Positions 1 through 52,177 of a DNA stretch of 52,177 nucleotides are shown piece after piece. The position numbers and the translations under genes were made by a program. Position 1 is the first letter of the stretch. Each line of letters starts with the position of its first letter. Under the pieces are notes generated by a model. The model saw nothing but the letters and a program-made list of their open reading frames with translations. It did not search any database and was not told the DNA's origin. Source of the stretch: a virus (lineage: Duplodnaviria > Heunggongvirae > Uroviricota > Caudoviricetes); IMG/VR virus record IMGVR_UViG_2563366958_000018; one strand, given 5' to 3'.

Positions 1-3000
1 ATGCCTGTCGACTTTCTAACCTCTGACCAAAAACAGAATTACGGTTGTTATGCTGCAGAACCTAATGACGTGCAACTGGCGCGCTATTTTCATCTTGATG
101 AACGGGATCTGGCCTTCATTAACCAACGACGGGGCAAACATAATAGGCTGGGCATTGCGCTTCAGCTCACCACAGCCCGTTTTCTGGGAACATTTCTGAC
201 GGATTTAACTCAGGTTCTGCCTGGTGTTCAACATTTTGTCGCGGTACAGCTTAATATCCACCGTCCAGAAGTTCTCTCCCGCTATGCTGAACGGGACACT
301 ACCCTTAGAGAACATACTGCATTAATTAAGGAATATTACGGCTATCATGAATTTGGTGATTTTCCATGGTCTTTCCGCCTGAAGCGTCTGCTATATACCC
401 GGGCGTGGCTCAGTAATGAGCGACCGGGTCTGATGTTTGATTTTGCCACTGCATGGTTGCTTCAAAATAAGGTATTACTGCCCGGAGCAACCACACTAGT
501 ACGTCTCATCAGTGAAATTCGTGAAAGGGCAAATCAGCGGCTGTGGAAAAAGCTGGCCGCACTGCCGAACAAATGGCAGGCAGCTCAAGTGATGGAGCTT
601 CTGGTCATTCCGGAAGGTCAGCGTGTATCAGCACTGGAACAGTTGAAAAAAGGCCCTGTTACAGTCAGTGGACCTGCGTTTAATGAGGCGCTGGAACGAT
701 ATATCCGATTACGAAGTCTTGAGTTTTCCCGACTGAACTTTTCCGGTCTGCCTGCCATTCAACTGCGTAATCTGGCTCGTTATGCTGGCATGGCGTCGGT
801 AAAATATATCGCTCGAATGCCACAGCAGAGAAAGCTTGCTGCACTTACTGCATTCGTTAAAGCACAGGAAATAACGGCATTAGACGATGCCGTTGATGTG
901 CTTGATATGCTAATTCTGGACATTATCCGCGAAGCAAAGAAAACCGGGCAAAAAAAAAGACTCAGGACACTGAAAGATCTTGATCAGGCCGCATTGTTAC
1001 TGGCGCGGGCATGTGCATTGTTGCTGGATGATAATACAGATGTCCCAGATCTCAGGCAGGTTATCTTCAAGTGCGTACCCAAAAACAGACTGGCAGAATC
1101 TGTAAGCAAGGTTAATGAACTTGCTCGTCCACAGAACAATAATTTCCATGACGAAATGGTTGAGCAGTACGGTCGGGTTAAACGTTTTCTTCCGGCGGTG
1201 TTGCGGGACCTGCATTTCCGTGCGGCACCGGCAGGTGAACATGTACTGGCTGCGATTCATTATCTGGCAGAACTGAATGGTTCGAAAAAGCGCATCCTTG
1301 ATGATGCGCCTGAACATATTATCACCGGTCCCTGGAAACGCCTCGTATACGATGCGGAGGGACGGATACAGCGTGCAGGTTATTCACTATGTTTGCTGGA
1401 ACGCCTTCAGGATGCACTGCGCCGCCGGGACATCTGGCTTGAAAACAGTGATCGCTGGGGAGATCCTCGCGAGAAGTTGTTGCAAGGTGAAGAGTGGCAG
1501 ACTCAGCGTATTCCTGTCTGTCGGGCACTGGGACATCCTGTCGATGGACGTAAAGGTGTGCAACAACTGGCTATTCAGCTGGATGAGACCTGGAAAGCCG
1601 TGGCATCACGATTTGAAAAGAATGCGGAAGTTCATATCTGTAATGAAGGTAAATATCCATCCCTGACTATCAGTTGTCTGGAGAAACAGGAAGAGCCACC
1701 ATCATTGCTTCGTCTAAATAATCGGATCAAACAGCTACTCCCACCGGTAGATTTAACGGAACTGTTACTTGAGATAGATGCCCAGACAGGATTTACACAT
1801 GAGTTTGCGCATGTCAGTGAATCTGGTGCTCGAGCGCAAGATTTGCACATCAGTTTATGTGCGGTATTGATGGCTGAAGCCTGTAATATCGGACTGGAGC
1901 CGCTGATAAAGCACAATATACCAGCACTGACCCGCCATCGGCTCAGTTGGGTGAAACAGAATTACCTTCGTGCAGAAACGCTGGTCAGCGCCAATGCCCG
2001 CCTGGTTGATTTTCAGTCCACACTGGAGCTTGCTGGTCGTTGGGGAGGTGGAGAAGTGGCATCAGCTGACGGCATGCGCTTTGTCACACCAGTGAAGACC
2101 ATCAACTCAGGATCTAACAGAAAATATTTTGGTTCTGGACGAGGCATCACCTGGTATAACTTCGTATCTGATCAGTACTCTGGGTTCCATGGCATTGTGG
2201 TACCCGGTACATTACGGGATTCGATTTTTGTACTGGAAGGACTTCTTGAGCAGCAGACAGGGCTGAATCCAGTTGAAATCATGACAGACACTGCGGGTAG
2301 CAGCGATATTATTTTCGGTCTGTTCTGGCTACTGGGGTATCAGTTTTCCCCCCGGCTTGCCGATGCAGGTGAGGCGGTGTTCTGGCGGGTGAATAAATCG
2401 GCAAACTACGGAGTACTGGATAAGTTGGCCCGAGGATATGCAGATCTGTCAAAAGCGGAGAGTCAGTGGGATGAGATGATGCGAACCGCTGGTTCGCTGA
2501 AGTTGGGTACAATTCATGCGTCAGAACTCATTCGCTCTTTACTGAAAAGCTCGCGCCCATCAGGACTGGCACAGGCAATTATGGAAGTAGGGCGTGTAAA
2601 CAAAACGCTATATCTCCTCAATTATATTGATGATGAAGATTATCGTCGGCGGATCCTGACGCAGCTTAATCGAGGAGAAGGCCGCCACGCTGTGGCTCGT
2701 GCGATTTGTTACGGACAACGCGGAGAGATCAGAAAGCGTTATCGTGAAGGGCAGGAAGATCAACTGGGGGCGCTGGGCCTGGTTACTAATGCAGTGGTTC
2801 TGTGGAACACGCTCTATATGGAGGAAGCGTTGAGCTGGATGCGCCGTAATGGCGAAGAAATTATAGATGAAGATATCGCTCGGCTATCTCCCCTGATGCA
2901 CGGGCATATCAATATGTTGGGCCATTATACATTCACGTTGCCAGAGGATATTTTAAAAGGGGAACTGAGAGCTCTAAATTTAAATATAAACAACGAATTA

Positions 3001-3009
3001 TCTCCTTAA
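1..3009 (+). CDS. tnpA: Tn3-family transposase TnpA (Tn1000/gamma-delta-like), 1002 aa
   Basis: Full-length ORF starting MPVDFLT; conserved Tn3-family TnpA blocks (RPGLMFD, GGGEVASADGMRFV, LSPLMHGHINMLGHY); stop codon lies inside the terminal IR as in Tn3-family elements. Confidence 0.9.
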   Translation: MPVDFLTSDQKQNYGCYAAEPNDVQLARYFHLDERDLAFINQRRGKHNRLGIALQLTTARFLGTFLTDLTQVLPGVQHFVAVQLNIHRPEVLSRYAERDTTLREHTALIKEYYGYHEFGDFPWSFRLKRLLYTRAWLSNERPGLMFDFATAWLLQNKVLLPGATTLVRLISEIRERANQRLWKKLAALPNKWQAAQVMELLVIPEGQRVSALEQLKKGPVTVSGPAFNEALERYIRLRSLEFSRLNFSGLPAIQLRNLARYAGMASVKYIARMPQQRKLAALTAFVKAQEITALDDAVDVLDMLILDIIREAKKTGQKKRLRTLKDLDQAALLLARACALLLDDNTDVPDLRQVIFKCVPKNRLAESVSKVNELARPQNNNFHDEMVEQYGRVKRFLPAVLRDLHFRAAPAGEHVLAAIHYLAELNGSKKRILDDAPEHIITGPWKRLVYDAEGRIQRAGYSLCLLERLQDALRRRDIWLENSDRWGDPREKLLQGEEWQTQRIPVCRALGHPVDGRKGVQQLAIQLDETWKAVASRFEKNAEVHICNEGKYPSLTISCLEKQEEPPSLLRLNNRIKQLLPPVDLTELLLEIDAQTGFTHEFAHVSESGARAQDLHISLCAVLMAEACNIGLEPLIKHNIPALTRHRLSWVKQNYLRAETLVSANARLVDFQSTLELAGRWGGGEVASADGMRFVTPVKTINSGSNRKYFGSGRGITWYNFVSDQYSGFHGIVVPGTLRDSIFVLEGLLEQQTGLNPVEIMTDTAGSSDIIFGLFWLLGYQFSPRLADAGEAVFWRVNKSANYGVLDKLARGYADLSKAESQWDEMMRTAGSLKLGTIHASELIRSLLKSSRPSGLAQAIMEVGRVNKTLYLLNYIDDEDYRRRILTQLNRGEGRHAVARAICYGQRGEIRKRYREGQEDQLGALGLVTNAVVLWNTLYMEEALSWMRRNGEEIIDEDIARLSPLMHGHINMLGHYTFTLPEDILKGELRALNLNINNELSP

Positions 3010-3042
3010 CGTACGTTTTCGTTCCATTGGCCCTCAAACCCC
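3005..3042. repeat. 38-bp Tn3-family terminal inverted repeat (Tn1000-like)
   Basis: CTTAACGTACGTTTTCGTTCCATTGGCCCTCAAACCCC is the reverse complement of a GGGGTTTGAGGGCCAATGGAACGAAAACGTACGTTAAG-type IR; overlaps the tnpA stop. Confidence 0.85.
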
Positions 3043-3843
3043 GATCTTTACGAGGTTGACGTAATAGTCATGGGGTAAGTTTGTCATGGTGATAGTTCCC
3101 TTAAAGGTTAAGGATACTCACCACCGTCTGGTTCCAATCATTGGGTGGTGAGACGTACAGGGTTGGAACTACCGGTCACCATGGAATCCGGCGAGTCTTA
3201 CGACTCCCCCGCACGCCCCACCATAATTTGGGTGTAGCAGTGCTTTACGCATAAAAAAACCGCTAACGCGGTATGCGCCATGATGATTATCGGGGTTCCA
3301 ATCCCGACCGTAGATTTTGCTACGGCTCGGAAAGTGTCCACCAATGGCGCATTCATGTCAATACGGCGGGATTTTAACAGAGACAACCACATAGCGTGGG
3401 TTTATTGGTAGGCAGAAACAAAAAAACCGCCCTATTGAGGACGGTTCTTTCGTGCTGATCGGATTCGCGGTCCTTTCAGCATAACGTCGTTGTATAAACA
3501 ACCACGCAAGCACAAGCAGCAAGTTAATTTTACCCAAAAGGTAATAATAGTCCACTATTATGCTTCAAAAAATTGTGGTTCTTGTTGTGCCTGCAAACTC
3601 ACAGATTGTGGGTAGGTTACTGATTTTGTGAAAATAAACGAGTTTTTTCGTTTAATTTCTTTCCTATTACTAATCTTAAAATAATCGTAAAATACCTGTG
3701 GACCTTCCCGCCGATTCGCACCCGGGCACCGACTTTAGGGGAGGATTCTCCGTTGCCGTACATGCAAGCACAAGCAGCCGTGCTTGCTCTCGCGTTGTTT
3801 TCGTCGGTGGGGATGCCGTGAAACGGCCTGTAAGGGCCATACA

Positions 3844-3966
3844 ATGAAAAAATACTGTATGTGTATTTTTATCGTTGTTACTGGGGCTTTGTTTACGCCA
3901 CATGGGGAGGGTTGGAAGATTACTGATAACGCTCTGAATGTGACGATAAACATTAGCAGCAAGTAG
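3844..3966 (+). CDS. Small hydrophobic ORF (40 aa, MKKYCMCIFIVVTGALF...), hypothetical
   Basis: ATG with weak upstream purine tract; single hydrophobic segment; followed directly by a strong hairpin plus T-run. Confidence 0.2.
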   Translation: MKKYCMCIFIVVTGALFTPHGEGWKITDNALNVTINISSK

Positions 3967-3971
3967 CGATT

Positions 3972-3995
3972 AGGCCCCTTCGGGGGCCTTTTTTA
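3972..3995 (+). terminator. Rho-independent terminator
   Basis: AGGCCCC-TTCG-GGGGCCT stem followed by TTTTTT. Confidence 0.5.
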
Positions 3996-5177: not shown

Positions 5178-5186
5178 GTGTTTGGT

Positions 5187-5287
5187 TATATAATTCTATA
5201 AATCTATATTTATAGAACGAGGTAAGCATAACCAACTTTTTGGCGGATGAAAAGCGTTTTATATAATTATATAAATCTATAATCATG
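5187..5287. promoter_or_regulatory. Candidate centromere/operator region upstream of the partition operon (two AT-rich palindromic repeat blocks)
   Basis: TTATATAATTCTATAAATCTATATTTATAGA (5187-5217) and TTTATATAATTATATAAATCTATAATCATG (5258-5287) immediately upstream of the ParA start. Confidence 0.45.
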
Positions 5288-5312
5288 TAAGCGGGCGTTA
5301 GCCCGCTTTCAG

Positions 5313-5687
5313 TCAGAGGTCAGCTATCGTTGATATCAGTTGATTTGCTAGCTGTCGCTGTTTACGTGAGAGGGTGAGAGCAGCTTCTGAGCGGTCGCTA
5401 AGAGGGGTGTTTTCATCAAGAATCATGAGGCATACAGAAATAATAGCCCTGTTATATGCCATCAATGGCTGGCACAGCTTCGATATCGCTGGCACATCGT
5501 ATTGTAAGGCCGTTTTGAGGCAGACTTTTTGTTCTGATGCCAGATGAAGGATAGATTCTATCCAGTCGATATCTTTCTCATTATCAATGATTTGGCATAA
5601 CATACACTCAATCGCTATGTTCAACGCTTGGATTTCGATTCCAGCAGTGATCAGAGTTTCGTTTTTATTGGCTGTATGTAATTCCAT
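5313..5687 (-). CDS. Hypothetical protein (124 aa), first leftward gene downstream of cI
   Basis: ORF preceded by a CI-type operator palindrome at 5723-5737. Confidence 0.45.
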   Translation of the reverse strand: MELHTANKNETLITAGIEIQALNIAIECMLCQIIDNEKDIDWIESILHLASEQKVCLKTALQYDVPAISKLCQPLMAYNRAIISVCLMILDENTPLSDRSEAALTLSRKQRQLANQLISTIADL

Positions 5688-5722
5688 GCGTAGCCTCTTT
5701 TATACTTTTACATGTTGTCAAA

Positions 5723-5737
5723 ACCACAAAATGTGGT
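5723..5737. promoter_or_regulatory. CI-type operator (ACCAC-AAAAT-GTGGT), OL-like
   Basis: Perfect 5+5 inverted repeat matching the operator consensus seen in the cI-cro intergenic region. Confidence 0.5.
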
Positions 5738-5779
5738 TTTTTTGAGCGTAGAAATGCACGGCTTTCGCCGTGCTGTGTA

Positions 5780-6436
5780 TCATAACCAGTTGACAACACT
5801 AACTACGCGGCCAAGAACTTTATAACGCTTAAATTCCTCGTTATTCAGATGCTTAGTGTTCATTTCAGCATCCCTTTCGGTTGACAGCATAACAGCATTG
5901 TCACCCGGTATGACTCTACAGTGCCTCAAAACAACCAGGCCATTTCTGTCTTCAAGGGCATAGATCCCCTCATGAATCTCTGTATCGTCTGTATTAATCA
6001 GGACTTGGGAGCCTGGGGATATTGTTGGTGACATTAACTCATCGTTGCTCTGGAGAACTGACAGAGACGATGGGTTGATGTTCTTGCTTCGTAGAATCTC
6101 CTGTTCTATCGCCAGCACTGGCTTTTCTCCGGCGTGCGATGCTATGTCATTTTTTATAGCTACAAGCCCAGGAATAACAGGAGCGTTAGTATTCTGGGGT
6201 GGGAACGGGTTATCTGTTAAGCACGCGATATAAGGCGCTGATGCTTTCAGGGCGTGCGCGATTTTCTTGATGGCAGGTATAGATGGTTGTCTTAATCCGG
6301 CCTCATAGTTCTGCAAGGTGCTTAAGCCTATTCCAGTGACTTGCTGGAGATCTCCGGCAGTCATGCCGGATTGTTTCCGTAGAGTCTGAATGCGCAGACC
6401 TATTTCTTTCTTGATGTTCTCGTCGTTGCTTTTCAT
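5780..6436 (-). CDS. cI: CI-like phage repressor (XRE-type HTH + S24/LexA-like autopeptidase domain)
   Basis: N-terminal HTH (LRKQSGMTAGDLQQVTGIGLSTLQNYEAG), Ala-Gly cleavage-site candidate, Ser (LMSPT) and Lys (KVLGRV) of the S24 dyad; divergent from the Cro-like gene. Confidence 0.85.
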   Translation of the reverse strand: MKSNDENIKKEIGLRIQTLRKQSGMTAGDLQQVTGIGLSTLQNYEAGLRQPSIPAIKKIAHALKASAPYIACLTDNPFPPQNTNAPVIPGLVAIKNDIASHAGEKPVLAIEQEILRSKNINPSSLSVLQSNDELMSPTISPGSQVLINTDDTEIHEGIYALEDRNGLVVLRHCRVIPGDNAVMLSTERDAEMNTKHLNNEEFKRYKVLGRVVSVVNWL

Positions 6437-6473
6437 GTCTCATCAATCGTGAATGGTGGGTTATTTATACATT

Positions 6474-6591
6474 ACCACATTTAGTGGTTTTCACATGGTA
6501 AGACGAGAGGTGGACCACAAATAGAAGGTTATTTTTTGTTTCGCCCATTGAAAAACTCACGATATGTGGTTTTAATACCACATATCGTGGT
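6474..6591. promoter_or_regulatory. OR-like operator region: three ACCAC-N5-GTGGT palindromes between cI and the Cro-like gene
   Basis: ACCACATTTAGTGGT (6474-6488), CTCACGATATGTGGT (6556-6570), ACCACATATCGTGGT (6577-6591). Confidence 0.6.
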
Positions 6592-6610: not shown

Positions 6611-7105
6611 ATGACCTTTCAGGAGTGGGTTGACGAAAATGGAGGCCAAATTGGTGTTGCCAGAAAGTTTGGCTTTACGTCATCACTGATTGGTGCCTGG
6701 TATCGCTTCGAGAGATTCCCTCGTGCGGATAACCTGACGCTGCTGGTGGCGTATTCGGAAGGCCGGATTAACGTCCAGCAATGGGCGGCAGATTTTGCCG
6801 AACGTCAGCGCCAGCGTAGCGATGGCACATCGGTTCGGCAGAACAAGATCAAAGGGAATCTCCCTGTTAACTGCTTATCAAGGCTGAAAGCGGTTTTCTC
6901 TGAGCTGGGGATGCCTGCGGAGCGTTGCAATCTACGCGGTCCGCGATTCATTGCTCGCTGGAAACACTCACATGTAACCGTTTCAGAGGTTCGTGATGCG
7001 ATTACCGTGCTGGAGCTTAAGAATAAAGATTCCAGCGATATCGAGCTGATTCATAAGGAGATTAGCAACGCCCGGCGTTCAGCACTTGGGAGGCTTGAGG
7101 AATGA
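6611..7105 (+). CDS. Cro-like HTH regulator (N-terminal HTH, 164 aa)
   Basis: Divergent from cI across the operator region; HTH-like segment GGQIGVARKFGFTSSLIGAWY. Confidence 0.5.
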   Translation: MTFQEWVDENGGQIGVARKFGFTSSLIGAWYRFERFPRADNLTLLVAYSEGRINVQQWAADFAERQRQRSDGTSVRQNKIKGNLPVNCLSRLKAVFSELGMPAERCNLRGPRFIARWKHSHVTVSEVRDAITVLELKNKDSSDIELIHKEISNARRSALGRLEE

Positions 7106-8583: not shown

Positions 8584-8961
8584 GTGAGACGCGATCTGGA
8601 TAGCTTGTTTGAGCTATGGGCGCTGTGGGTGCGCAATGGCTGCAACGCCCGTAGCGGTTTCGCGTCGATGTTAGAAATGATGATGGTTACGCGCTGCCAG
8701 TTTACCGGAGGGGGCGGCGCACCAAATGACTCACTGGAAACCAGTATAGAGGGAGCGGTGACGGCCCTCACGGTAGTTGATGAGACTGCGGCGCTGGTTG
8801 TCCGAATTGAATACGGGGCGTGGGAGATTCGGGGCCTCGACATAAATGCACCGCATATTGATAAAGCCCACGCCCTTTCTCTTAGCCTCAGACAGTATCG
8901 CCGGAAGCTGGCAAAAGCCAGGGCGTATGTTGTCGACTATTTGAAAAAGCGAAGAGAGTAA
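8584..8961 (+). CDS. Possible Q-like late antiterminator (short Q family)
   Basis: 125 aa, GTG start, position after nin-like genes and N-terminal pattern (LFELWALW) reminiscent of short Q proteins; weak. Confidence 0.35.
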   Translation: MRRDLDSLFELWALWVRNGCNARSGFASMLEMMMVTRCQFTGGGGAPNDSLETSIEGAVTALTVVDETAALVVRIEYGAWEIRGLDINAPHIDKAHALSLSLRQYRRKLAKARAYVVDYLKKRRE

Positions 8962-12839: not shown

Positions 12840-13180
12840 GCTGTAGTGAGAATCCATGCGATTACGAGCAGTATTCAGATATTCAGAGCGGGTAATGAAG
12901 CACATACAACCGAAAACATGGCAGAAACTGGACTCTATGGGAGCTAAGTTGGAGAAGATTACTCAACTTAAGCAGTGGCATATCGGCGAATATTATGGAA
13001 GTCCTGGTCGGGATGTTCGGTTGGTAAAAAGTTGAACATTGTTTTTTTATTGATCGATTAACCACGATATGAAGGTTTTTTTATGGAAAAACCTTGTTTT
13101 AGATGGTAACTGGGTGTAGTGTTTCATTTAACGTAGTAAAACTGCGTTAAGCGATTACCGCGTAATTTGTTGCTTTATGA

Positions 13181-14707: not shown

Positions 14708-14831
14708 TACCGCCTGTGATTGGGTAAAGCCCATCTACCTGACTGATCACGACATCGATGTTATGGACCGCCAGACAAAGAAAGATATTCTGGCTCATAA
14801 CAGGGCATGGGAAATCAACTGCCGAAAGTAA
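14622..14831 (+). CDS. o-spanin (Rz1-like lipoprotein), overlapping the i-spanin 3' end in another frame
   Basis: Signal peptide with lipobox LIAS-C, Pro-rich mature part. Confidence 0.6.
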   Translation: MYSRVLTIWLMTMLIASCGSRGSVPVVVDTACDWVKPIYLTDHDIDVMDRQTKKDILAHNRAWEINCRK

Positions 14832-17954: not shown

Positions 17955-18578
17955 ATGACAAAACATCTTAATGTGGTTTCTTTACCACTTTCTGTGTTGA
18001 TTGGTTATGAAAAGAACGCTCGCACACACTCCGTGGAGCAGGTAGATCAGATTATTGCCAGCATACAGGAGTACGGATGGACTAATCCGATCCTGATAGA
18101 CGAGAACAACGTTGTAATTGCTGGTCATGGTCGAATTGCTGCGGCCACTCAGTTGGGGATGGATGATGTTCCCTGCATTGTTCTGGCTGGGCTAACGGAG
18201 AATCAGAAGAAGGCATATCGTCTGGCCGACAACCGTATTCCGCTGAATGCTGGTTGGGATGAAGAGTTGTTAAGCGCGGAGCTTGCAGATCTTGCGGCCG
18301 ATGATTTTGCTCTGGACTCAATTGGTTTTACTCAGCGCGAACTGGATAACTTATTGAGTGCGGCGGTCTACGATGACACAGAGGGTATGGATATCCCATT
18401 TGAGAAGGATGAGGCCAAATCAGGCGTAAAAGTTCAGTACCTGTCATTTGGAGGTCATAAAATCCCGGCAACGGATGAGGAAGCGGATCGTTTTGACTGC
18501 GCGGTGTCTCGTTATGTTGATGATAATGGCAGCTATATCGGATTTGTATCCGCATTGCTGGCTGGGGAGGTGTGCTGA
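17955..18578 (+). CDS. ParB/Srx-like nuclease-domain protein (207 aa)
   Basis: N-terminal ParB-type fold with GHGR arginine motif (VIAGHGRIAAA); paralogue of 21244-21834. Confidence 0.7.
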   Translation: MTKHLNVVSLPLSVLIGYEKNARTHSVEQVDQIIASIQEYGWTNPILIDENNVVIAGHGRIAAATQLGMDDVPCIVLAGLTENQKKAYRLADNRIPLNAGWDEELLSAELADLAADDFALDSIGFTQRELDNLLSAAVYDDTEGMDIPFEKDEAKSGVKVQYLSFGGHKIPATDEEADRFDCAVSRYVDDNGSYIGFVSALLAGEVC

Positions 18579-28976: not shown

Positions 28977-29320
28977 TGAACTCCTTCAAAGAGGTTATAG
29001 CGCAAGATATTTCTGCAATATTCCTCAATGAAAAAGAGTTTGCCGATACATATAACATAGACGGCAAGGATATCCTTGCCGTTATTGATACAGACCTTAT
29101 TCATGAGCGGAATAAACGCTCATATGCTGAGTTTGCAGAGGGAATAAATCAGGGGCAAATAATATTATTTGTTTCAAGAAAAGATTTTCCTGTTCTCCCT
29201 GTCAAAGACCAGTCAATGAAAATCAACGGTAAAAATTATATTGTTGATGAAGTATCAGATAATGTTGGTGTATTGGAAATAACTCTCACTGTTAATACTA
29301 ACAGAGGAATGCCGATTTGA
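28976..29320 (+). CDS. Putative head-tail connector/adaptor protein
   Basis: Position and size only. Confidence 0.4.
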   Translation: MNSFKEVIAQDISAIFLNEKEFADTYNIDGKDILAVIDTDLIHERNKRSYAEFAEGINQGQIILFVSRKDFPVLPVKDQSMKINGKNYIVDEVSDNVGVLEITLTVNTNRGMPI

Positions 29321-35543: not shown

Positions 35544-36534
35544 AACGCTTTTTGATGTTATATATCAGAATGTAAATATTACCGCTCATATGTCACCTGA
35601 TGTTTTGTCAATGTCTTATACAGATAATGAAGATGGTCAGGTCGATGATATTTCTATTATATTAAAAAATGATGATGGGAAATGGTCTGGAGACTGGACA
35701 CCTAAAAAGGGTGATTTTATTGATTTGAGCTTTAAGCCTATAAATCAAATCGTCCTTGAGTGCGGGAAATTCCAGGTAGATGGCATAACTTGCTCTGGAC
35801 CACCTTCTGTGGTTGAGGTAACTGCTGTTTCTGTTCCTGTTTCATCAGGCATTAGACGTGATTTAAAAAGTAATGCATGGGAAAAAACAACTCTTAAAGA
35901 TATAGCAACTTCTATAGCTAAATTAGCTAACCTTGAACTGTTGTTTCTTATTGATGGTGATAGTAATCCATATTATGCGCGTGAAGATCAAATGGAGGAA
36001 AGCGATTTAAAATTTCTCCATCGACTTTGCCAGGATGAAGGGTTGTCGTTAAAGGTCACTGATAGCCAATTAATAATATTTGCTCAAGAGATGTTTGAGC
36101 AAAAAGATCCTATCGCTACGCTTACGTTAGGTATTGATGAGATAATCAGATATAGCTTTAGCACACAATCTACAGATTTGTATAAAAGTTGCACGTGCAA
36201 ATATCGCGTACCTAAAAAAAGAAAGTCGCTTTCGTATACTTGGGTAGATCCATCCGTAGAAGAAGGGTCGAATCTTAAGATAAGAAAACTGGTAGCTAAT
36301 TTAGATGAAGCAAAACGTAAGGCAAAGGCTGCTTTGCGGCTTAAAAATAGATATCAAAATACCGGATCTTTAGTATTGGTTGGAGACACCAGATTGGTAG
36401 CTGGTGTAACTATAAATCTGGAGGGATTCGGTTCATTTTCTGGAAAATATCTTATATCGAAAGCTGTGCATTCAATTGGGACTAGTGGTTATACCACCTC
36501 GATTGATGTCCGAAGAGTAATTAATGGGTATTAA
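35533..36534 (+). CDS. Baseplate hub/late control gpD-like protein
   Basis: 333 aa, position after tape measure and X; GTG start. Confidence 0.55.
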   Translation: MLRKTLFDVIYQNVNITAHMSPDVLSMSYTDNEDGQVDDISIILKNDDGKWSGDWTPKKGDFIDLSFKPINQIVLECGKFQVDGITCSGPPSVVEVTAVSVPVSSGIRRDLKSNAWEKTTLKDIATSIAKLANLELLFLIDGDSNPYYAREDQMEESDLKFLHRLCQDEGLSLKVTDSQLIIFAQEMFEQKDPIATLTLGIDEIIRYSFSTQSTDLYKSCTCKYRVPKKRKSLSYTWVDPSVEEGSNLKIRKLVANLDEAKRKAKAALRLKNRYQNTGSLVLVGDTRLVAGVTINLEGFGSFSGKYLISKAVHSIGTSGYTTSIDVRRVINGY

Positions 36535-43599: not shown

Positions 43600-44472
<873 letters not shown>

Positions 44473-44642
44473 TCAATATTATTGAAGCATTTATCAGGGT
44501 TATTGTCTCATGAGCGGATACATATTTGAATGTATTTAGAAAAATAAACAAATAGGGGTTCCGCGCACATTTCCCCGAAAAGTGCCACCTGACGTCTAAG
44601 AAACCATTATTATCATGACATTAACCTATAAAAATAGGCGTA

Positions 44643-45222
<580 letters not shown>

Positions 45223-45637
45223 AAGATAATCATGTGACCAATTATTGTAATAATTTTAATGGTATGTTTCTACTGGCTATCCAGCGTGTCTGATATCCAG
45301 TAACAAATCGTCAACACGGGTGCAATCAAATAGTGAGTGTTAAGACTGACCACTTATTACCAGGTATGAGTGGCCAGCATTAAATCAGAACAGCCCTTTA
45401 ACTGAACTGGCCGCGCTGTTAAGGGATGATGTCACCTTATCTTTGAAGCCGGACAGCATATTGCTGAACGATGAGTTTACCGCAGGTTTCTGGCTGGGAA
45501 TCATTGACTGGAGTTAGGCCAGTAGTATGATGCTCGCAAAACGAGATCCAATTTAGATCCTTTTACTGGTGGATTATCGTTCGATCAGTGAGAGACTTCG
45601 TGCATGACCGAAAGTGTTGTGGTAGAGTTCTCTTAAA

Positions 45638-45652
45638 ACCACGTAACGTGGT
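45638..45652. promoter_or_regulatory. CI-type operator palindrome (ACCAC-GTAAC-GTGGT) in the repA promoter region
   Basis: Perfect match to the ACCAC-N5-GTGGT consensus (extended AACCAC/GTGGTT), about 40 bp upstream of the repA leader, overlapping a TATGAT -10 candidate. Confidence 0.4.
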
Positions 45653-45688
45653 TATGATTGTGGGTGTCTGGTTGGAAAGTGACCAGAT

Positions 45689-46669
45689 ATGGAAACAAAA
45701 AGCCCGCAGATAAATCTGCGGGCTTCTTGCGACATCCACGGAAAACCAACAACAACAATCCATGGGCGCCTCGACAACTCCCATTATACGTTGGTTTTCC
45801 GTGGACGCAAGAGCGAACATATGGATAGACCAATGCCGTCTCTACGTTCAGCTTACGTTTGTAATTTGTCGCCGGAGTTCCAGCCTCCAAAGCACCATAC
45901 GCACAAGCTGCCGCTGGTGTTATCTGATGCTTTACAGCGCATTAATGGGCGTGATCTTACGTGTGAGGTTGCGTTCTACGTTAATCAACCGTCAGAGCGG
46001 AAGCGCCGGATAAACGAGCATCGTCGTCGGGCGATTAATGCTGTGATCGCTGCGATTTTGCACCATGTAAACATCATTTCTAAGCGGGTTCTGGCTAGTG
46101 CTGAGGCGTTGGCTGATTTTTGCGGCCTGTCTACCGTATCCGAAGCTGGGAACAAGTCTATAACGCGCTGTACAAGGGCGTTGTCGCAACTGAAAGCGTT
46201 AGGTTTTATTGATTATGAACGTCGCTGGGATCGGGTGAATAAACAGTATTGGCCAGCGAAAATAGAGATTCGTGATCAACTGCTGGAAACCGTTGGTATT
46301 ACTGAACAAGCATGGAGACGTGCGGTTAGCCAGAAACTTAATTACTTCAATGCGAAGAATAGCGAACGGCTTAAAAAAGCGATAACGGAGGCTGATTATA
46401 AGCGTATTGTTATTCAGGAGCAGATGGAGAATGTATGGCGTCAGAGGAAGACGGCCAGAGAGATAAAGGCAAAACAGAAAGCAGCGGAGAGAGCTGCGCG
46501 TCTTGTTCGGGAAAAGGGAGAGGCCGAACTTCGTCATCAAATCACCAGAGAGGTTAGTCAGGAATTTGCTGATGGCATGTATCCTGGTGCTGACCTTGCA
46601 TATTTACGATCCCTCGTTGAGCAGCGTTATAACAGGTTAAGAAAGACCTGGAAATCACTCCAACATTAA
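45689..46669 (+). CDS. repA: Plasmid replication initiator RepA (IncFII RepA1 / I-complex RepZ family)
   Basis: Conserved RRRAINAVIAAILHH and CGLSTVSEAGNKSITRCTRALSQLKALGFIDY blocks align with IncFII RepA1 as recalled; likely true start at ATG 45821 (282 aa), with 45689-45820 being leader. Confidence 0.85.
   Translation: METKSPQINLRASCDIHGKPTTTIHGRLDNSHYTLVFRGRKSEHMDRPMPSLRSAYVCNLSPEFQPPKHHTHKLPLVLSDALQRINGRDLTCEVAFYVNQPSERKRRINEHRRRAINAVIAAILHHVNIISKRVLASAEALADFCGLSTVSEAGNKSITRCTRALSQLKALGFIDYERRWDRVNKQYWPAKIEIRDQLLETVGITEQAWRRAVSQKLNYFNAKNSERLKKAITEADYKRIVIQEQMENVWRQRKTAREIKAKQKAAERAARLVREKGEAELRHQITREVSQEFADGMYPGADLAYLRSLVEQRYNRLRKTWKSLQH
45699..45810 (+). promoter_or_regulatory. repA leader with two strong hairpins (candidate antisense-RNA target / translational control region)
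   Basis: AGCCCGCAG-ATAAAT-CTGCGGGCT (45701-45723) and CCACGGAAAACCAAC...GTTGGTTTTCCGTGG (15-bp stem, 45736-45804). Confidence 0.35.
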
Positions 46670-51034: not shown

Positions 51035-52177
51035 TTATGGTCTGCTTTTCTGTGCCAGCTTATCAGCACATGTTTTTATCAGATCCTGTAGTGTCTTGGC
51101 TGGCAGGTTTGCATCCAGTACGCTGAGTATGCTGTTGTGATCAGCTTGGTCGACTACTTTGCCTGTCGGTGGTAGTAGCTTGAGCTGAGGATTCAGGTTT
51201 TCGTCAAAGCTGATAAGTGCTCTGGCGTTTCTGAGCAGATCAAGAAGTAAGGCTGATATCACATTTTCCTGAGTCATTGCTGGCAGATTTAGCGCCGCTT
51301 TGGTTTTCCCTGTTGCCTTGTCAAACGCCTTGATTAGTTCCTTCCTGTAGTTCGGTTCCGTTAATAGCCGATTATGCTCTGTTGCCGCGCGGATAATCGT
51401 TTTTTCCTGGTACAGTCGTTTAGCCAGATCACGCTCGTACTGTGTTTTTAACACGCTGCTGATAGCGTTAAAGGCTTCAATGTAGGCCAGCTTGATATCT
51501 TTCACGCTTGGACCGTCGATGCTCTCCATGAGCAAGGTAAATCCGTCTTTTGTCATGCGATAGATTGTTATTTCGCGGTCGCTTCCTTCCAGCGGTCGTT
51601 GCTCTTTAAAGAAGTGACGCGCCGCAGCCGTGCGAGGAATGCGTAGCGCATCGATGGCCATAACGATGGAATTGTTTGTGGTGCTGAATGCTTGGGCAAC
51701 ATCGGCTGAGGTTGTGAGTGGCTCGTTGTTGCACACTTTAATGTAAAACATCGGTTTGGCGTTGAGCGTATCGACAACCTCACGAGCATTGTTTGGCGAG
51801 ACGGTTACGGTCGCGGCCGTTTGCGCGTTCTGGCTGAAATAGCAGTCTTCCAGCCGTTCGAATACATCCCACGCCTGATCGGTTTCGAGCATTTTGGCGT
51901 GACGTGCAGCCCCGCGTTCTGTCCAGAGAATGAGGGAGCGGGCATTTTTACCAACTAACCCGATTGTTTCAGGTCTGTTCTTGAACTCGCGTAATTCGTT
52001 TTTTTCAATTTTAAAGTAATGCTTTCCGGCTATGAATCGCGTCGTGTTGTTCAGAAAGTTATCAGAAATGTTTTTGATTTTTGTTCCGTATAACTGCGCC
52101 AGAAGTTCAGTTGTAATAACGGGGATCTGGTTATGCAAGATAGGCTGTAGGGTGTTAACGGTCGGAAGCGTTTTCAT
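51035..52177 (-). CDS. Phage antirepressor (AntA/ORF6N-type N-terminal domain, Rha-like central region)
   Basis: 380 aa; N-terminal ITTELLAQLYGTKIKNISDNFLNN...RFIAGKHYF; start codon is the last three bases of the window so the true start may lie beyond it. Confidence 0.7.
   Translation of the reverse strand: MKTLPTVNTLQPILHNQIPVITTELLAQLYGTKIKNISDNFLNNTTRFIAGKHYFKIEKNELREFKNRPETIGLVGKNARSLILWTERGAARHAKMLETDQAWDVFERLEDCYFSQNAQTAATVTVSPNNAREVVDTLNAKPMFYIKVCNNEPLTTSADVAQAFSTTNNSIVMAIDALRIPRTAAARHFFKEQRPLEGSDREITIYRMTKDGFTLLMESIDGPSVKDIKLAYIEAFNAISSVLKTQYERDLAKRLYQEKTIIRAATEHNRLLTEPNYRKELIKAFDKATGKTKAALNLPAMTQENVISALLLDLLRNARALISFDENLNPQLKLLPPTGKVVDQADHNSILSVLDANLPAKTLQDLIKTCADKLAQKSRP

What the first reader, a model, noticed from the sequence alone, without database searches (positions are those of the whole stretch)
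5723..6591. CI repressor operators defined by ACCAC-N5-GTGGT; an OL-like site precedes an unknown leftward gene
Three operator palindromes lie between cI and the Cro-like gene (6474-6488, 6556-6570, 6577-6591) and a fourth lies upstream of ORF 5313-5687. This gives a lambda-like OR1-3 plus OL layout, with the 124-aa protein in the position lambda uses for N. It has no arginine-rich motif, so it is unlikely to be an N-type antiterminator and may be a new early regulator or kil-type function.
Basis: seen in the sequence. Interest (0 to 1): 0.5.

Follow-up and report, generated by a model that had tools for sequence, protein, structure and literature searches.

The report
Repressor operators of a phage-plasmid

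Summary
ACCAC-N5-GTGGT occurs exactly at 5723, 6474 and 6577. 6556-6570 is a one-mismatch copy (CTCAC). Chance expectation is 0.03 exact matches per window. Across nine lineages whose intergenic DNA is otherwise diverged, the half-sites are almost the only invariant columns.

The window is a ~48-kb E. coli phage-plasmid: 58 near-identical plasmids, including one of ATCC 25922, and three Yersinia myophages.

- **Layout.** It is not lambda OR1-3. Two sites 21 bp apart cover the rightward promoter, one site 82 bp away covers the cI promoter, and a conserved hybrid half-site lies between.
- **Site at 5723.** It follows the cI terminator and lies 35 nt before ORF 5313-5687, a terminator-bracketed single gene.
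- **ORF124.** The model is an acidic, confidently folded four-helix bundle, so it is not N-like. It has no informative relatives and always lies between cI and parA.
- **Missed site.** An equally strong operator (45638-45652) abuts the -10 of an IncFII-type repA and is conserved in Salmonella. This is the N15/phiKO2 logic.
- **CI.** It lacks the LexA-type cleavage residues. A P1-type c4 RNA/antirepressor module is present.

ORF124's function remains unknown. Its promoter is not canonical.

The parts
5720..5740 (.). Operator before ORF124 ('OL-like'). The core is 5723-5737, ACCACAAAATGTGGT, and the full element is a perfect 21-bp palindrome, AAAACCACA-AAA-TGTGGTTTT, centred on 5730. It has the highest score in the window.
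   Evidence: 31.1 bits; 10 of 10 half-site columns invariant in nine lineages. It is present even in the most diverged relative, L015.
5313..5687 (-). ORF124: a 124-aa acidic four-helix-bundle protein of unknown function. The start codon and GAGAGG ribosome-binding site are conserved. It is a single-gene unit.
   Evidence: 38 invariant columns in 8 homologues at 48-97% identity to the window protein; pLDDT 91.6; only 7 representatives among 1.84 billion proteins; no family except phrog_7632, function unknown. Synteny cI-ORF124-parA holds in every locus that extends that far.
5291..5306 (-). GC-rich hairpin (GCGGGC-TAAC-GCCCGC) just after the ORF124 stop codon. It is terminator-like and separates ORF124 from the par promoter/centromere repeats at 5186-5286.
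   Evidence: I21; hairpin conserved in the Salmonella, Yokenella and Citrobacter relatives, followed there by TTTAT.
5756..5773 (-). cI terminator hairpin (GCACGGC-GAAA-GCCGTGC). The U-tract is weak in this window and is T6-T7 in relatives.
   Evidence: stem invariant, loop variable, changes on both arms of the stem in L016; hairpin present in the predicted fold.
5780..6436 (-). cI-type repressor, 218 aa: N-terminal HTH_3 domain plus an S24-like C-terminal domain that lacks the Ala-Gly cleavage site and the Ser and Lys catalytic residues.
6474..6488 (.). Operator at the cI promoter (ACCACATTTAGTGGT). Its cI-proximal half-site is fused to a conserved extended -10 element (minus strand TGG-TAATGT, 6477 down to 6469).
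   Evidence: ACCACT-AATGTGGTAA nearly invariant in nine lineages; 23.9 bits. The promoter assignment is inferred.
6513..6530 (.). Conserved hybrid site, GACCAC-N6-AAGGTT, midway between the divergent promoters: a CI-type half-site joined to a different half-site.
   Evidence: (D2). The same hybrid motif occurs at 13060-13077.
6556..6570 (.). Operator in the spacer of the rightward promoter (CTCACGATATGTGGT, one mismatch). It lies between the -35 TTGAAA (6548-6553) and the -10 TTTAAT (6571-6576).
   Evidence: (23.5 bits). The promoter hexamers are inferred; the tool's strict scan did not list them.
6577..6591 (.). Operator over the predicted start site of the rightward transcript (ACCACATATCGTGGT). 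It is 21 bp centre to centre from the previous site.
   Evidence: 30.5 bits. The 21-bp spacing is kept in all relatives.
6611..7105 (+). First gene of the rightward operon, 164 aa, in the Cro position. Evidence for an HTH is weak.
   Evidence: phrog_35 E = 0.0023, residues 1-53; YdaS_toxin E = 0.028 in 1 of 8; single-sequence model, pLDDT 51, unusable.
45638..45652 (.). Operator at the repA promoter (AAAACCACGTAACGTGGTT). It directly abuts a TATGAT -10 at 45653-45658.
   Evidence: 30.1 bits; conserved in Salmonella pAR-0407-1 at 14712 and in the ATCC 25922 plasmid at 13018. It is absent upstream of repA in two unrelated plasmids with 36-37% identical RepA.
45821..46669 (+). IncFII-type RepA replication initiator. 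This is the likely true start; the 326-aa ORF starting at 45689 is not conserved in Salmonella.
   Evidence: NF040977 RepA_IncFII_LM, 232 bits against a cut-off of 70.
3386..3400 (.). Candidate weak operator (ACCACATAGCGTGGG) upstream of the c4 RNA/antirepressor operon. Doubtful.
   Evidence: (17.8 bits, below the single highest shuffle maximum of 21.8). It lies about 25 nt upstream of the conserved -35, is degenerate in Citrobacter and Yokenella, and is absent in the Salmonella lineage.

Best explanation
The AAAACCAC-N5-GTGGTTTT palindromes are the operator set of the prophage repressor (CI, 5780-6436) of a ~48-kb E. coli phage-plasmid.

Proposed mechanism, all inferred:
- **Rightward promoter.** Two CI dimers on the pair 6556-6570 and 6577-6591, 21 bp (two helical turns) apart, cover the spacer and start site of the rightward early promoter and shut off the lytic operon.
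- **cI promoter.** One dimer on 6474-6488 sits on the extended -10 of cI's own promoter and gives negative autoregulation.
- **repA.** One dimer on 45638-45652 fills the spacer of a repA promoter, so the same repressor holds down plasmid replication.
- **ORF124.** One dimer on 5720-5740, the best site of all, lies just past the cI terminator and 35 nt before ORF124. It overlaps every candidate -35 or spacer position for that gene. ORF124 would therefore be silent in the plasmid-prophage state and switched on when CI is inactivated.

CI cannot self-cleave. Inactivation is therefore expected to come from the P1-type c4 RNA/icd/antirepressor module.

ORF124 is a cytoplasmic, acidic four-helix bundle with no nucleic-acid-binding features. 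My best guess is that it acts by binding another protein early in lytic development, for example as a P1 Coi-like antagonist of CI that makes the switch irreversible, or as a modifier of the neighbouring partition system or of replication. That last step is a guess.

What is shown: the sites exist, are far beyond chance, are conserved as footprints, and have fixed geometry. What is inferred: that CI rather than another protein binds them, the promoter positions, and the direction of regulation.
For: - Motif statistics: 5 exact matches against 0.03 expected.
- A matrix trained on other lineages picks out exactly these sites, with a gap from 23.5 to 13.2 bits apart from the doubtful 17.8-bit site.
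- Phylogenetic footprints: p = 1e-9 and p = 4e-6.
- The motif is retained at the same places even in L015, the most diverged relative.
- The pair spacing is strictly 21 bp and the gap to the third site is 81-83 bp in all lineages.
- CI has an HTH_3 domain and matches the phage repressor family.
- The ORF124 site follows a conserved hairpin plus T-run terminator and precedes a conserved ribosome-binding site and start codon.
- ORF124 is bracketed by hairpins.
- The repA site is conserved in Salmonella and abuts TATGAT.
- RepA identity is confirmed.
- The S24 catalytic residues are absent.
- A C4 antisense RNA scores 84 bits against a gathering score of 45, next to an ORF6N/Rha protein.
- In N15 and phiKO2 a non-cleavable CB repressor binds OR1-3 plus OL sites on the repA promoter and lowers copy number (PMC4997575).
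- ORF124 fold and charge: for the fold; the sequence has 16 Asp/Glu against 10 Lys/Arg.
Against: - There is no binding or expression data.
- No canonical sigma-70 promoter exists for ORF124. The perfect TTGACA next to the operator has no -10 at 16-18 nt, the best layouts score only about 5-8 bits, and they differ between lineages.
- The inferred rightward -10 (TTTAAT) lacks the usual A at position 2 and was not listed by the promoter scan.
- All relatives share one operator specificity, so co-variation of repressor and operator could not be tested.
- The Cro-position protein might bind the same sites.
- Fold searches for ORF124 return only generic helical bundles, so its activity is unsupported by any homology.
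Confidence: 0.6

Rival explanations
1. The 5720-5740 site is mainly a distal auxiliary operator. CI bound there loops to the sites 750-850 bp away at the cI/cro spacer, as with lambda OL-OR octamers or the 186 flanking sites, and so sharpens repression and autoregulation. Any effect on ORF124 is secondary. This can coexist with the main explanation.
For: It is the strongest and most symmetrical site (31.1 bits). It flanks the cI gene at a distance that is kept in all relatives. No convincing ORF124 promoter overlaps it. Oligomerisation and long-range cooperation have been raised for phiKO2 CB (PMC4997575).
Against: The site sits at a fixed short distance, about 43 nt from its centre to the ATG, from a gene insulated by terminators on both sides. 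That is the arrangement expected for direct promoter control. The repA site shows that single isolated operators in this element sit on promoters.
Confidence: 0.2
2. CI activates rather than represses ORF124. The operator lies immediately upstream of a -35-like TTGACA, much as lambda OR2 sits at PRM. ORF124 would then be a lysogen-expressed accessory gene, for example for exclusion, defence or plasmid maintenance, like rexAB next to lambda cI.
For: In the E. coli and Yokenella lineages the operator ends 1-2 nt before TTGACA or TTGACG. Genes next to the repressor gene and on the same strand are often lysogenic-conversion genes (general knowledge).
Against: No -10 element lies 16-18 nt after that -35; the sequence there is AGAGGC, the ribosome-binding site. 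The TTGACA is not conserved: it reads TTTAGT, TTAACG or TTTACC in other lineages. The operator centre would lie near -44, not -41.5. PADLOC gives no defence hit.
Confidence: 0.1
3. ORF124 is an N-type antiterminator that lets leftward transcription read through into par and the antirepressor genes.
For: Only its position after cI and an OL-like site, together with the presence of terminator-like hairpins downstream.
Against: The model is a confidently folded four-helix bundle (pLDDT 91.6). The protein has net charge about -6 and no arginine-rich motif. No conserved nut-like element was seen in the short leader (by inspection). The par operon has its own repeat-flanked promoter region.
Confidence: 0.02
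4. The palindromes are not protein-binding sites but chance repeats or RNA hairpins/terminators.
For: Each forms a short AT-flanked hairpin, and the promoter/terminator tool lists the 6557-6590 palindrome as terminator-like.
Against: The expected number is 0.03. The half-sites are invariant while the central 5 nt vary freely, which is a protein footprint and not a stem-loop pattern. The sites occur on promoters in both orientations and at repA.
Confidence: 0.03

Closest known systems
immB region of the linear phage-plasmids N15 and phiKO2 (CB repressor, Cro, OR1-3, OL1-2 at repA)
   Same: The element is a phage-plasmid. The repressor lacks the RecA cleavage site and the Ser/Lys residues. Several operators lie between the divergent repressor and cro genes. 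Further operators lie beyond the 3' end of the repressor gene. The same repressor has an operator on the repA promoter, linking immunity to copy number (PMC4997575; window).
   Different: The operator sequence differs: 15-21-bp ACCAC-N5-GTGGT here against 16-bp T-A-N10-T-A. The gene after the repressor here is the orphan ORF124, not repA. repA is of the IncFII type and lies elsewhere on the element, about 39 kb away in this window's coordinates, with a single operator. The plasmid is circular and the virion is a P2-like myovirus. The 2+1 site layout has a hybrid half-site in between.
Lambda immunity region (CI, Cro, OR1-3, OL1-3, PL-N)
   Same: Divergent cI and cro-position genes have palindromic operators over both promoters. 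A terminator follows cI, then an operator, then a leftward gene. CI has an HTH plus an S24-fold C-terminal domain.
   Different: There is no tripartite adjacent OR. There is a single 'OL' site. No evidence was found for positive autoregulation. CI is not self-cleaving. The leftward gene is a folded acidic bundle, not N, and the leftward unit ends at a terminator-like hairpin after one gene.
Phage P1 immunity circuitry (C1 operators dispersed over the genome; immI c4-icd-ant; Coi next to c1)
   Same: A c4 antisense RNA (Rfam RF01695, 84 bits) with an icd-like small ORF and an antirepressor-type gene is present. Repressor sites are dispersed to distant promoters. A Ref nuclease gene sits in the early operon. 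A small gene next to the repressor gene and under repressor control recalls coi (my knowledge of P1).
   Different: The repressor is a lambda-type HTH protein with symmetric operators, not C1 with asymmetric 17-mers. ORF124 has no sequence similarity to Coi. The CI-like site at the c4 operon is weak and lineage-specific.
IncFII (R1/R100) replication control: CopB repressor at PrepA plus CopA antisense RNA
   Same: RepA belongs to the IncFII family. There is a conserved upstream promoter, a repressor-binding site at a second repA-proximal promoter, and a conserved leader hairpin with a T-run on the opposite strand, as expected for an antisense RNA.
   Different: No copB gene is present, and the phage CI site takes that position. 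No Rfam CopA match was found.

Membership tests
Lambda-type CI/Cro switch | Repressor with an N-terminal HTH and an S24-fold C-terminal domain, divergent from a cro gene | tested here: met
   HTH_3 E = 4.5e-11; Peptidase_S24 weak (E = 0.0018, below the cut-off); phrog_4 E = 1e-26. The gene is divergent from ORF 6611-7105.
Lambda-type CI/Cro switch | Three adjacent operators (OR1-3) spanning both divergent promoters, allowing pairwise cooperativity and positive autoregulation | tested here: not met
   The sites are centred at 6481, 6563 and 6584, giving spacings of 82 and 21 bp. The same spacing is found in all relatives.
Lambda-type CI/Cro switch | RecA-stimulated self-cleavage (Ala-Gly site, catalytic Ser and Lys) | tested here: not met
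   In the MAFFT alignment with LexA, lambda CI and UmuD, Ser aligns with Glu, Lys with Arg, and Ala-Gly with Ile-Lys. The catalytic Ser is replaced in all four family members aligned.
Lambda-type CI/Cro switch | The first rightward gene is a Cro-type DNA-binding protein | tested here: inconclusive
   phrog_35 E = 0.0023 over residues 1-53; YdaS_toxin E = 0.028 in 1 of 8 homologues; no PDB hit; the AF2 single-sequence model has pLDDT 51.
Lambda N antiterminators | Small basic protein with an arginine-rich RNA-binding motif, largely disordered, acting at nut sites | tested here: not met
   Four helices cover nearly the whole chain at pLDDT 91.6. The sequence has 16 acidic against 10 basic residues and no Arg-rich run. 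No N family hit in Pfam, PHROGs or NCBIfam.
N15/phiKO2 immB-type phage-plasmid switch | Non-cleavable repressor with operators both at cro/cB and at the repA promoter | tested here: met
   for the window; PMC4997575 for the reference system. Binding itself was not tested.
N15/phiKO2 immB-type phage-plasmid switch | repA lies directly after the repressor gene behind OL1-OL2; 16-bp T-A-N10-T-A operators | tested here: not met
   The gene behind the site is ORF124. repA is at 45821-46669 and has one site. The operator consensus is different.
P1-type immI (c4 antisense RNA, icd, ant) | c4 RNA gene with upstream target repeats, followed by a small ORF and an antirepressor | tested here: met
   RF01695 C4, 84.3 bits (gathering score 45). 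RF01394 isrK, 70.2 bits (gathering score 50). c4-a1b1, 38 bits, below its gathering score. An ORF6N/Rha protein follows in relatives. In this window the 63-aa ORF is cut by a transposon end.
IncFII RepA replicons | RepA initiator of the IncFII family | tested here: met
   NF040977, 232 bits against a cut-off of 70.
IncFII RepA replicons | CopA-type antisense RNA in the repA leader | tested here: inconclusive
   A conserved hairpin at 45699-45730 has a T-run on the minus strand, but there is no Rfam CopA hit.

The most novel reading that the evidence does not exclude
ORF124 founds a new, lineage-restricted class of repressor-controlled switch protein. In this reading it is a four-helix bundle made only when CI falls. 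It then binds CI (a Coi-like commitment factor), or the ParA/RepA machinery, to convert a partitioned low-copy plasmid into a freely replicating lytic genome. Together with the CI site on an IncFII repA promoter, this would be a compact circuit coupling immunity, copy number and partition in a clinically common, resistance-carrying phage-plasmid.
Probability: 0.2. Interest if true: 0.65.

Novelty: new member of a known kind. Interest (0 to 1): 0.38.

Why it matters
This phage-plasmid family is common in E. coli. There are 58 near-identical plasmids in PLSDB, including one in the reference strain ATCC 25922, and three infectious Yersinia phages. The copy in this window carries TEM beta-lactamase.

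Knowing the repressor's operator set gives a testable map of how the element decides between plasmid maintenance and lytic growth. The map predicts that the prophage repressor also sets plasmid copy number, and hence resistance-gene dosage, through repA. It also singles out one uncharacterised gene as a tightly controlled switch component worth a knockout.

The regulatory principle itself is already known from N15/phiKO2, lambda and P1.

Tried and rejected
- **Promoter for ORF124.** The strict consensus scan finds none. A weighted -35/-10 scan over ten lineages gives no layout that is both good and conserved. The perfect TTGACA beside the operator has no partner -10.
- **Co-variation of operator with repressor.** This could not be done, because every relative found, including the most diverged (L015), keeps ACCAC/GTGGT.
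- **Cro-like protein.** The single-sequence model was unusable at pLDDT 51. The profile search against PDB sequences found nothing.
- **LexA boxes.** None lies near any regulatory region. The single match, at 29289, is in a structural gene.
- **35799-35813.** This exact core match lies inside a tail gene, has poor flanks and is mutated in the ATCC 25922 plasmid. Rejected as chance.
- **3386-3400.** Considered as an operator of the c4/antirepressor operon and downgraded. It is upstream of the conserved promoter and absent in the Salmonella lineage.
- **Long-range RNA pairing 5711-5721 / 5786-5800.** It appears in the fold but is not conserved in relatives. Rejected.
- **RepA scan of genome contigs.** It found no relatives.
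- **Literature.** No paper on this element's regulation was found. pSLy3 turned out to belong to the SSU5 group, not this element. A 2026 preprint on phage-plasmid heteroresistance could not be opened.
Full report
**What the window is.** The 2-kb region around the finding is 99-100% identical to 58 circular, non-mobilizable plasmids of 46-51 kb, almost all from E. coli. One of them is a plasmid of E. coli ATCC 25922. The region is also about 99% identical to three Yersinia pestis myophages, vB_YpM_39, 41 and 44. The element carries P2-like tail genes, a lambda-like head module, a small ParA with an 82-aa partner, an IncFII-family RepA, toxin-antitoxin genes and, in this window, a Tn3-family transposase and TEM beta-lactamase. 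It is therefore a phage-plasmid. I found no paper on its regulation.

**Checking the observation.** ACCAC-N5-GTGGT occurs exactly five times in the window, against 0.03 expected, and none of 100 shuffles reaches five. It is the mirror image of 6577-6591, and together they form a palindrome with 14-bp arms at 6557-6590. The element is longer than stated. All copies carry A/T-rich flanks, giving the consensus AAAACCAC-N5-GTGGTTTT, and 5720-5740 is a perfect 21-bp palindrome.

**Relatives.** I collected diverged relatives through the ORF124 protein, from Salmonella, Yokenella, Citrobacter and several metagenomic contigs. ORF124 identity in the aligned set is 48-59%, and further representatives from the exhaustive search are more diverged. 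All keep the order cro-position gene, cI, ORF124, and every locus that extends far enough continues with parA and the 82-aa gene.

**Conservation.** In an alignment of nine lineages the half-sites stand out as footprints.
- In the cI/cro spacer, 26 of 30 half-site columns are invariant against 41 of 151 other columns (p = 1e-9).
- At the site before ORF124, 10 of 10 are invariant against 23 of 93 (p = 4e-6).
- The central five bases vary freely.

**Independent scoring.** A weight matrix trained only on the non-E. coli lineages ranks the window as 5723 (31.1 bits), 6577 (30.5), 45638 (30.1), 6474 (23.9), 6556 (23.5) and 3386 (17.8). The next score is 13.2. The maximum over 50 shuffles averaged 9.3, with a single highest value of 21.8. 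The exact match at 35799, inside a tail gene, is not among the top twelve and is altered in the ATCC 25922 plasmid. I take it as chance.

**Anatomy of the cI/cro spacer.** The layout is not lambda's three adjacent operators. Two sites lie 21 bp apart, which is two helical turns.
- Site 6556-6570 fills the 17-bp spacer between TTGAAA (6548-6553) and TTTAAT (6571-6576).
- Site 6577-6591 covers the expected start point of the rightward transcript.
- The third site, 6474-6488, is 82 bp from the pair. On the cI strand its half-site runs straight into a conserved TGG-TAATGT, an extended -10 element for cI.

These spacings, 21 bp and 81-83 bp, are the same in every lineage. The promoter hexamers are my inference. 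The strict scan did not list them, and TTTAAT lacks the usual A at position 2.

Midway between the promoters lies a conserved hybrid element, GACCAC-N6-AAGGTT (6513-6530). The same hybrid occurs upstream of the lysis genes at 13060-13077 and at both places in the relatives. It may belong to a second regulator.

**The site before ORF124.** On the minus strand the order is as follows.
- cI stop codon.
- A GC hairpin at 5756-5773. Its stem is invariant, its loop varies, and it is followed by T6-T7 in relatives but by a weak tract here.
- About ten bases.
- The operator.
- About 25 variable bases.
- A conserved GAGAGG ribosome-binding site.
- The ATG at 5687.

After ORF124 comes another conserved GC hairpin (5291-5306), then the repeat-rich par promoter/centromere region. 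ORF124 is thus an insulated single-gene unit.

I could not identify a convincing promoter. The perfect TTGACA that follows the operator in E. coli has no -10 at 16-18 nt, and it is not conserved. The other layouts place either a -35 inside the operator or the operator in the spacer. They score modestly and differ between lineages. In every layout the operator overlaps the core promoter, which favours repression by occlusion, but this is inference.

The operator at 45638-45652 (AAAACCACGTAACGTGGTT) directly abuts a TATGAT at 45653-45658, upstream of an IncFII-family RepA (232 bits against a cut-off of 70). The site, the -10 and a strong upstream promoter are conserved in the Salmonella relative. 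The annotated long repA start at 45689 is not conserved, so RepA probably starts at 45821. Two unrelated plasmids with 36-37% identical RepA have no such site. The repA leader contains a conserved hairpin with a T-run on the opposite strand, as expected for an antisense RNA, but Rfam gives no CopA match.

**The repressor and induction.** CI aligns with LexA, lambda CI and UmuD over its C-terminal domain. It should therefore not self-cleave. Rfam finds a P1-type C4 antisense RNA (3141-3228, 84 bits) and isrK (3253-3326, 70 bits). In relatives these are followed by a 63-aa ORF and an ORF6N/Rha antirepressor-type gene. In this window the 63-aa ORF is cut by the transposon end near 3046. A weak CI-like site at 3386-3400 lies upstream of that operon's conserved promoter. 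It is degenerate or absent in other lineages, so I list it only as a candidate.

**Comparison with known systems.**
- **N15/phiKO2.** This is the closest described system. [quoted passage not shown] The present element works like that but is not a member of that family. The operator sequence is different, the gene behind the 'OL' site is ORF124 rather than repA, repA is of IncFII type and lies elsewhere with a single site, and the genome is circular with a myovirus virion.
- **Lambda.** The element shares the divergent cI/cro plan and the terminator-operator-leftward-gene topology. It lacks the tripartite OR, self-cleavage and N.
- **P1.** The element shares the c4/icd/ant module, dispersed repressor sites and a Ref nuclease gene.

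**Verdict.** The sites are an ordinary repressor regulon in a not-yet-studied but common phage-plasmid. The layout is a new member of the N15/lambda kind of switch. The added value is threefold: the corrected geometry, the repA operator, and the definition of ORF124 as a lineage-restricted, terminator-insulated, presumably CI-repressed gene whose function remains open. Interest is moderate.

Noticed in passing
window 45638-45652 (and 45504-45532, 45699-45730): A full-strength CI-type operator abuts the -10 of an IncFII-type repA. A conserved strong promoter (TTGACT-N16-TATGAT) lies about 110 nt upstream, and a conserved antisense-RNA-like hairpin lies in the leader. The annotated 326-aa RepA start (45689) is not conserved in Salmonella, so the real start is probably 45821.
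   Followed up: yes
window 3141-3339 (minus strand); 3386-3400: A P1-type immI module: C4 antisense RNA (84 bits), isrK (70 bits) and a sub-threshold c4-a1b1 match. In relatives a 63-aa ORF and an ORF6N/Rha antirepressor-type gene follow. A weak CI-like site lies upstream but is not conserved in the Salmonella lineage.
   Followed up: partly
window 1-3046 and 3047-3087: A Tn3-family transposon end (tnpA 1-3009, inverted repeat to about 3046) interrupts the 63-aa icd-like ORF upstream of the antirepressor gene (51035-52177). This copy may therefore be impaired in induction.
   Followed up: partly
window 6513-6530 and 13060-13077: A hybrid motif, (G/A)ACCAC-N6-AAGGTT, occurs in the middle of the cI/cro spacer and again upstream of the lysis genes. 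It is at both places in the Salmonella and ATCC 25922 relatives. It may be the site of a second regulator, such as the 164-aa Cro-position protein or a late activator.
   Followed up: partly
window 17963-17977 and 17984-17998: Two weak operator-like sequences lie exactly 21 bp apart at the start of a ParB/Srx-domain gene. They are conserved in three lineages but lie inside coding sequence, so the conservation may be due to coding.
   Followed up: no
window 5780-6436: The CI repressor has an S24-like C-terminal domain without the Ala-Gly site or the Ser/Lys dyad, so it should not be RecA-cleavable.
   Followed up: yes
window 3698-3994 (+): A strong Rfam match to ryfA RNA (142 bits, gathering score 80) lies between the par genes and the c4 region. 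It contains a small hydrophobic ORF and may be a type I toxin-antitoxin-like maintenance element.
   Followed up: no
window 5186-5286: Direct and inverted AT-rich repeats (TTATATAATTCTATAAATCTATA) lie between ORF124 and parA. They are conserved in relatives and are a probable par promoter/centromere.
   Followed up: no
window 43600-44975: TEM-type beta-lactamase (286 aa) with a truncated resolvase (110 aa). This is a second Tn3-family fragment, separated from the transposase at 1-3009, which suggests rearrangement.
   Followed up: no
window 8584-8961: A 125-aa protein late in the rightward early operon has a weak hit to the PA0613 family (E = 2.5e-4, below the cut-off). It sits where an N15-type Q antiterminator would lie. 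Not examined.
   Followed up: no
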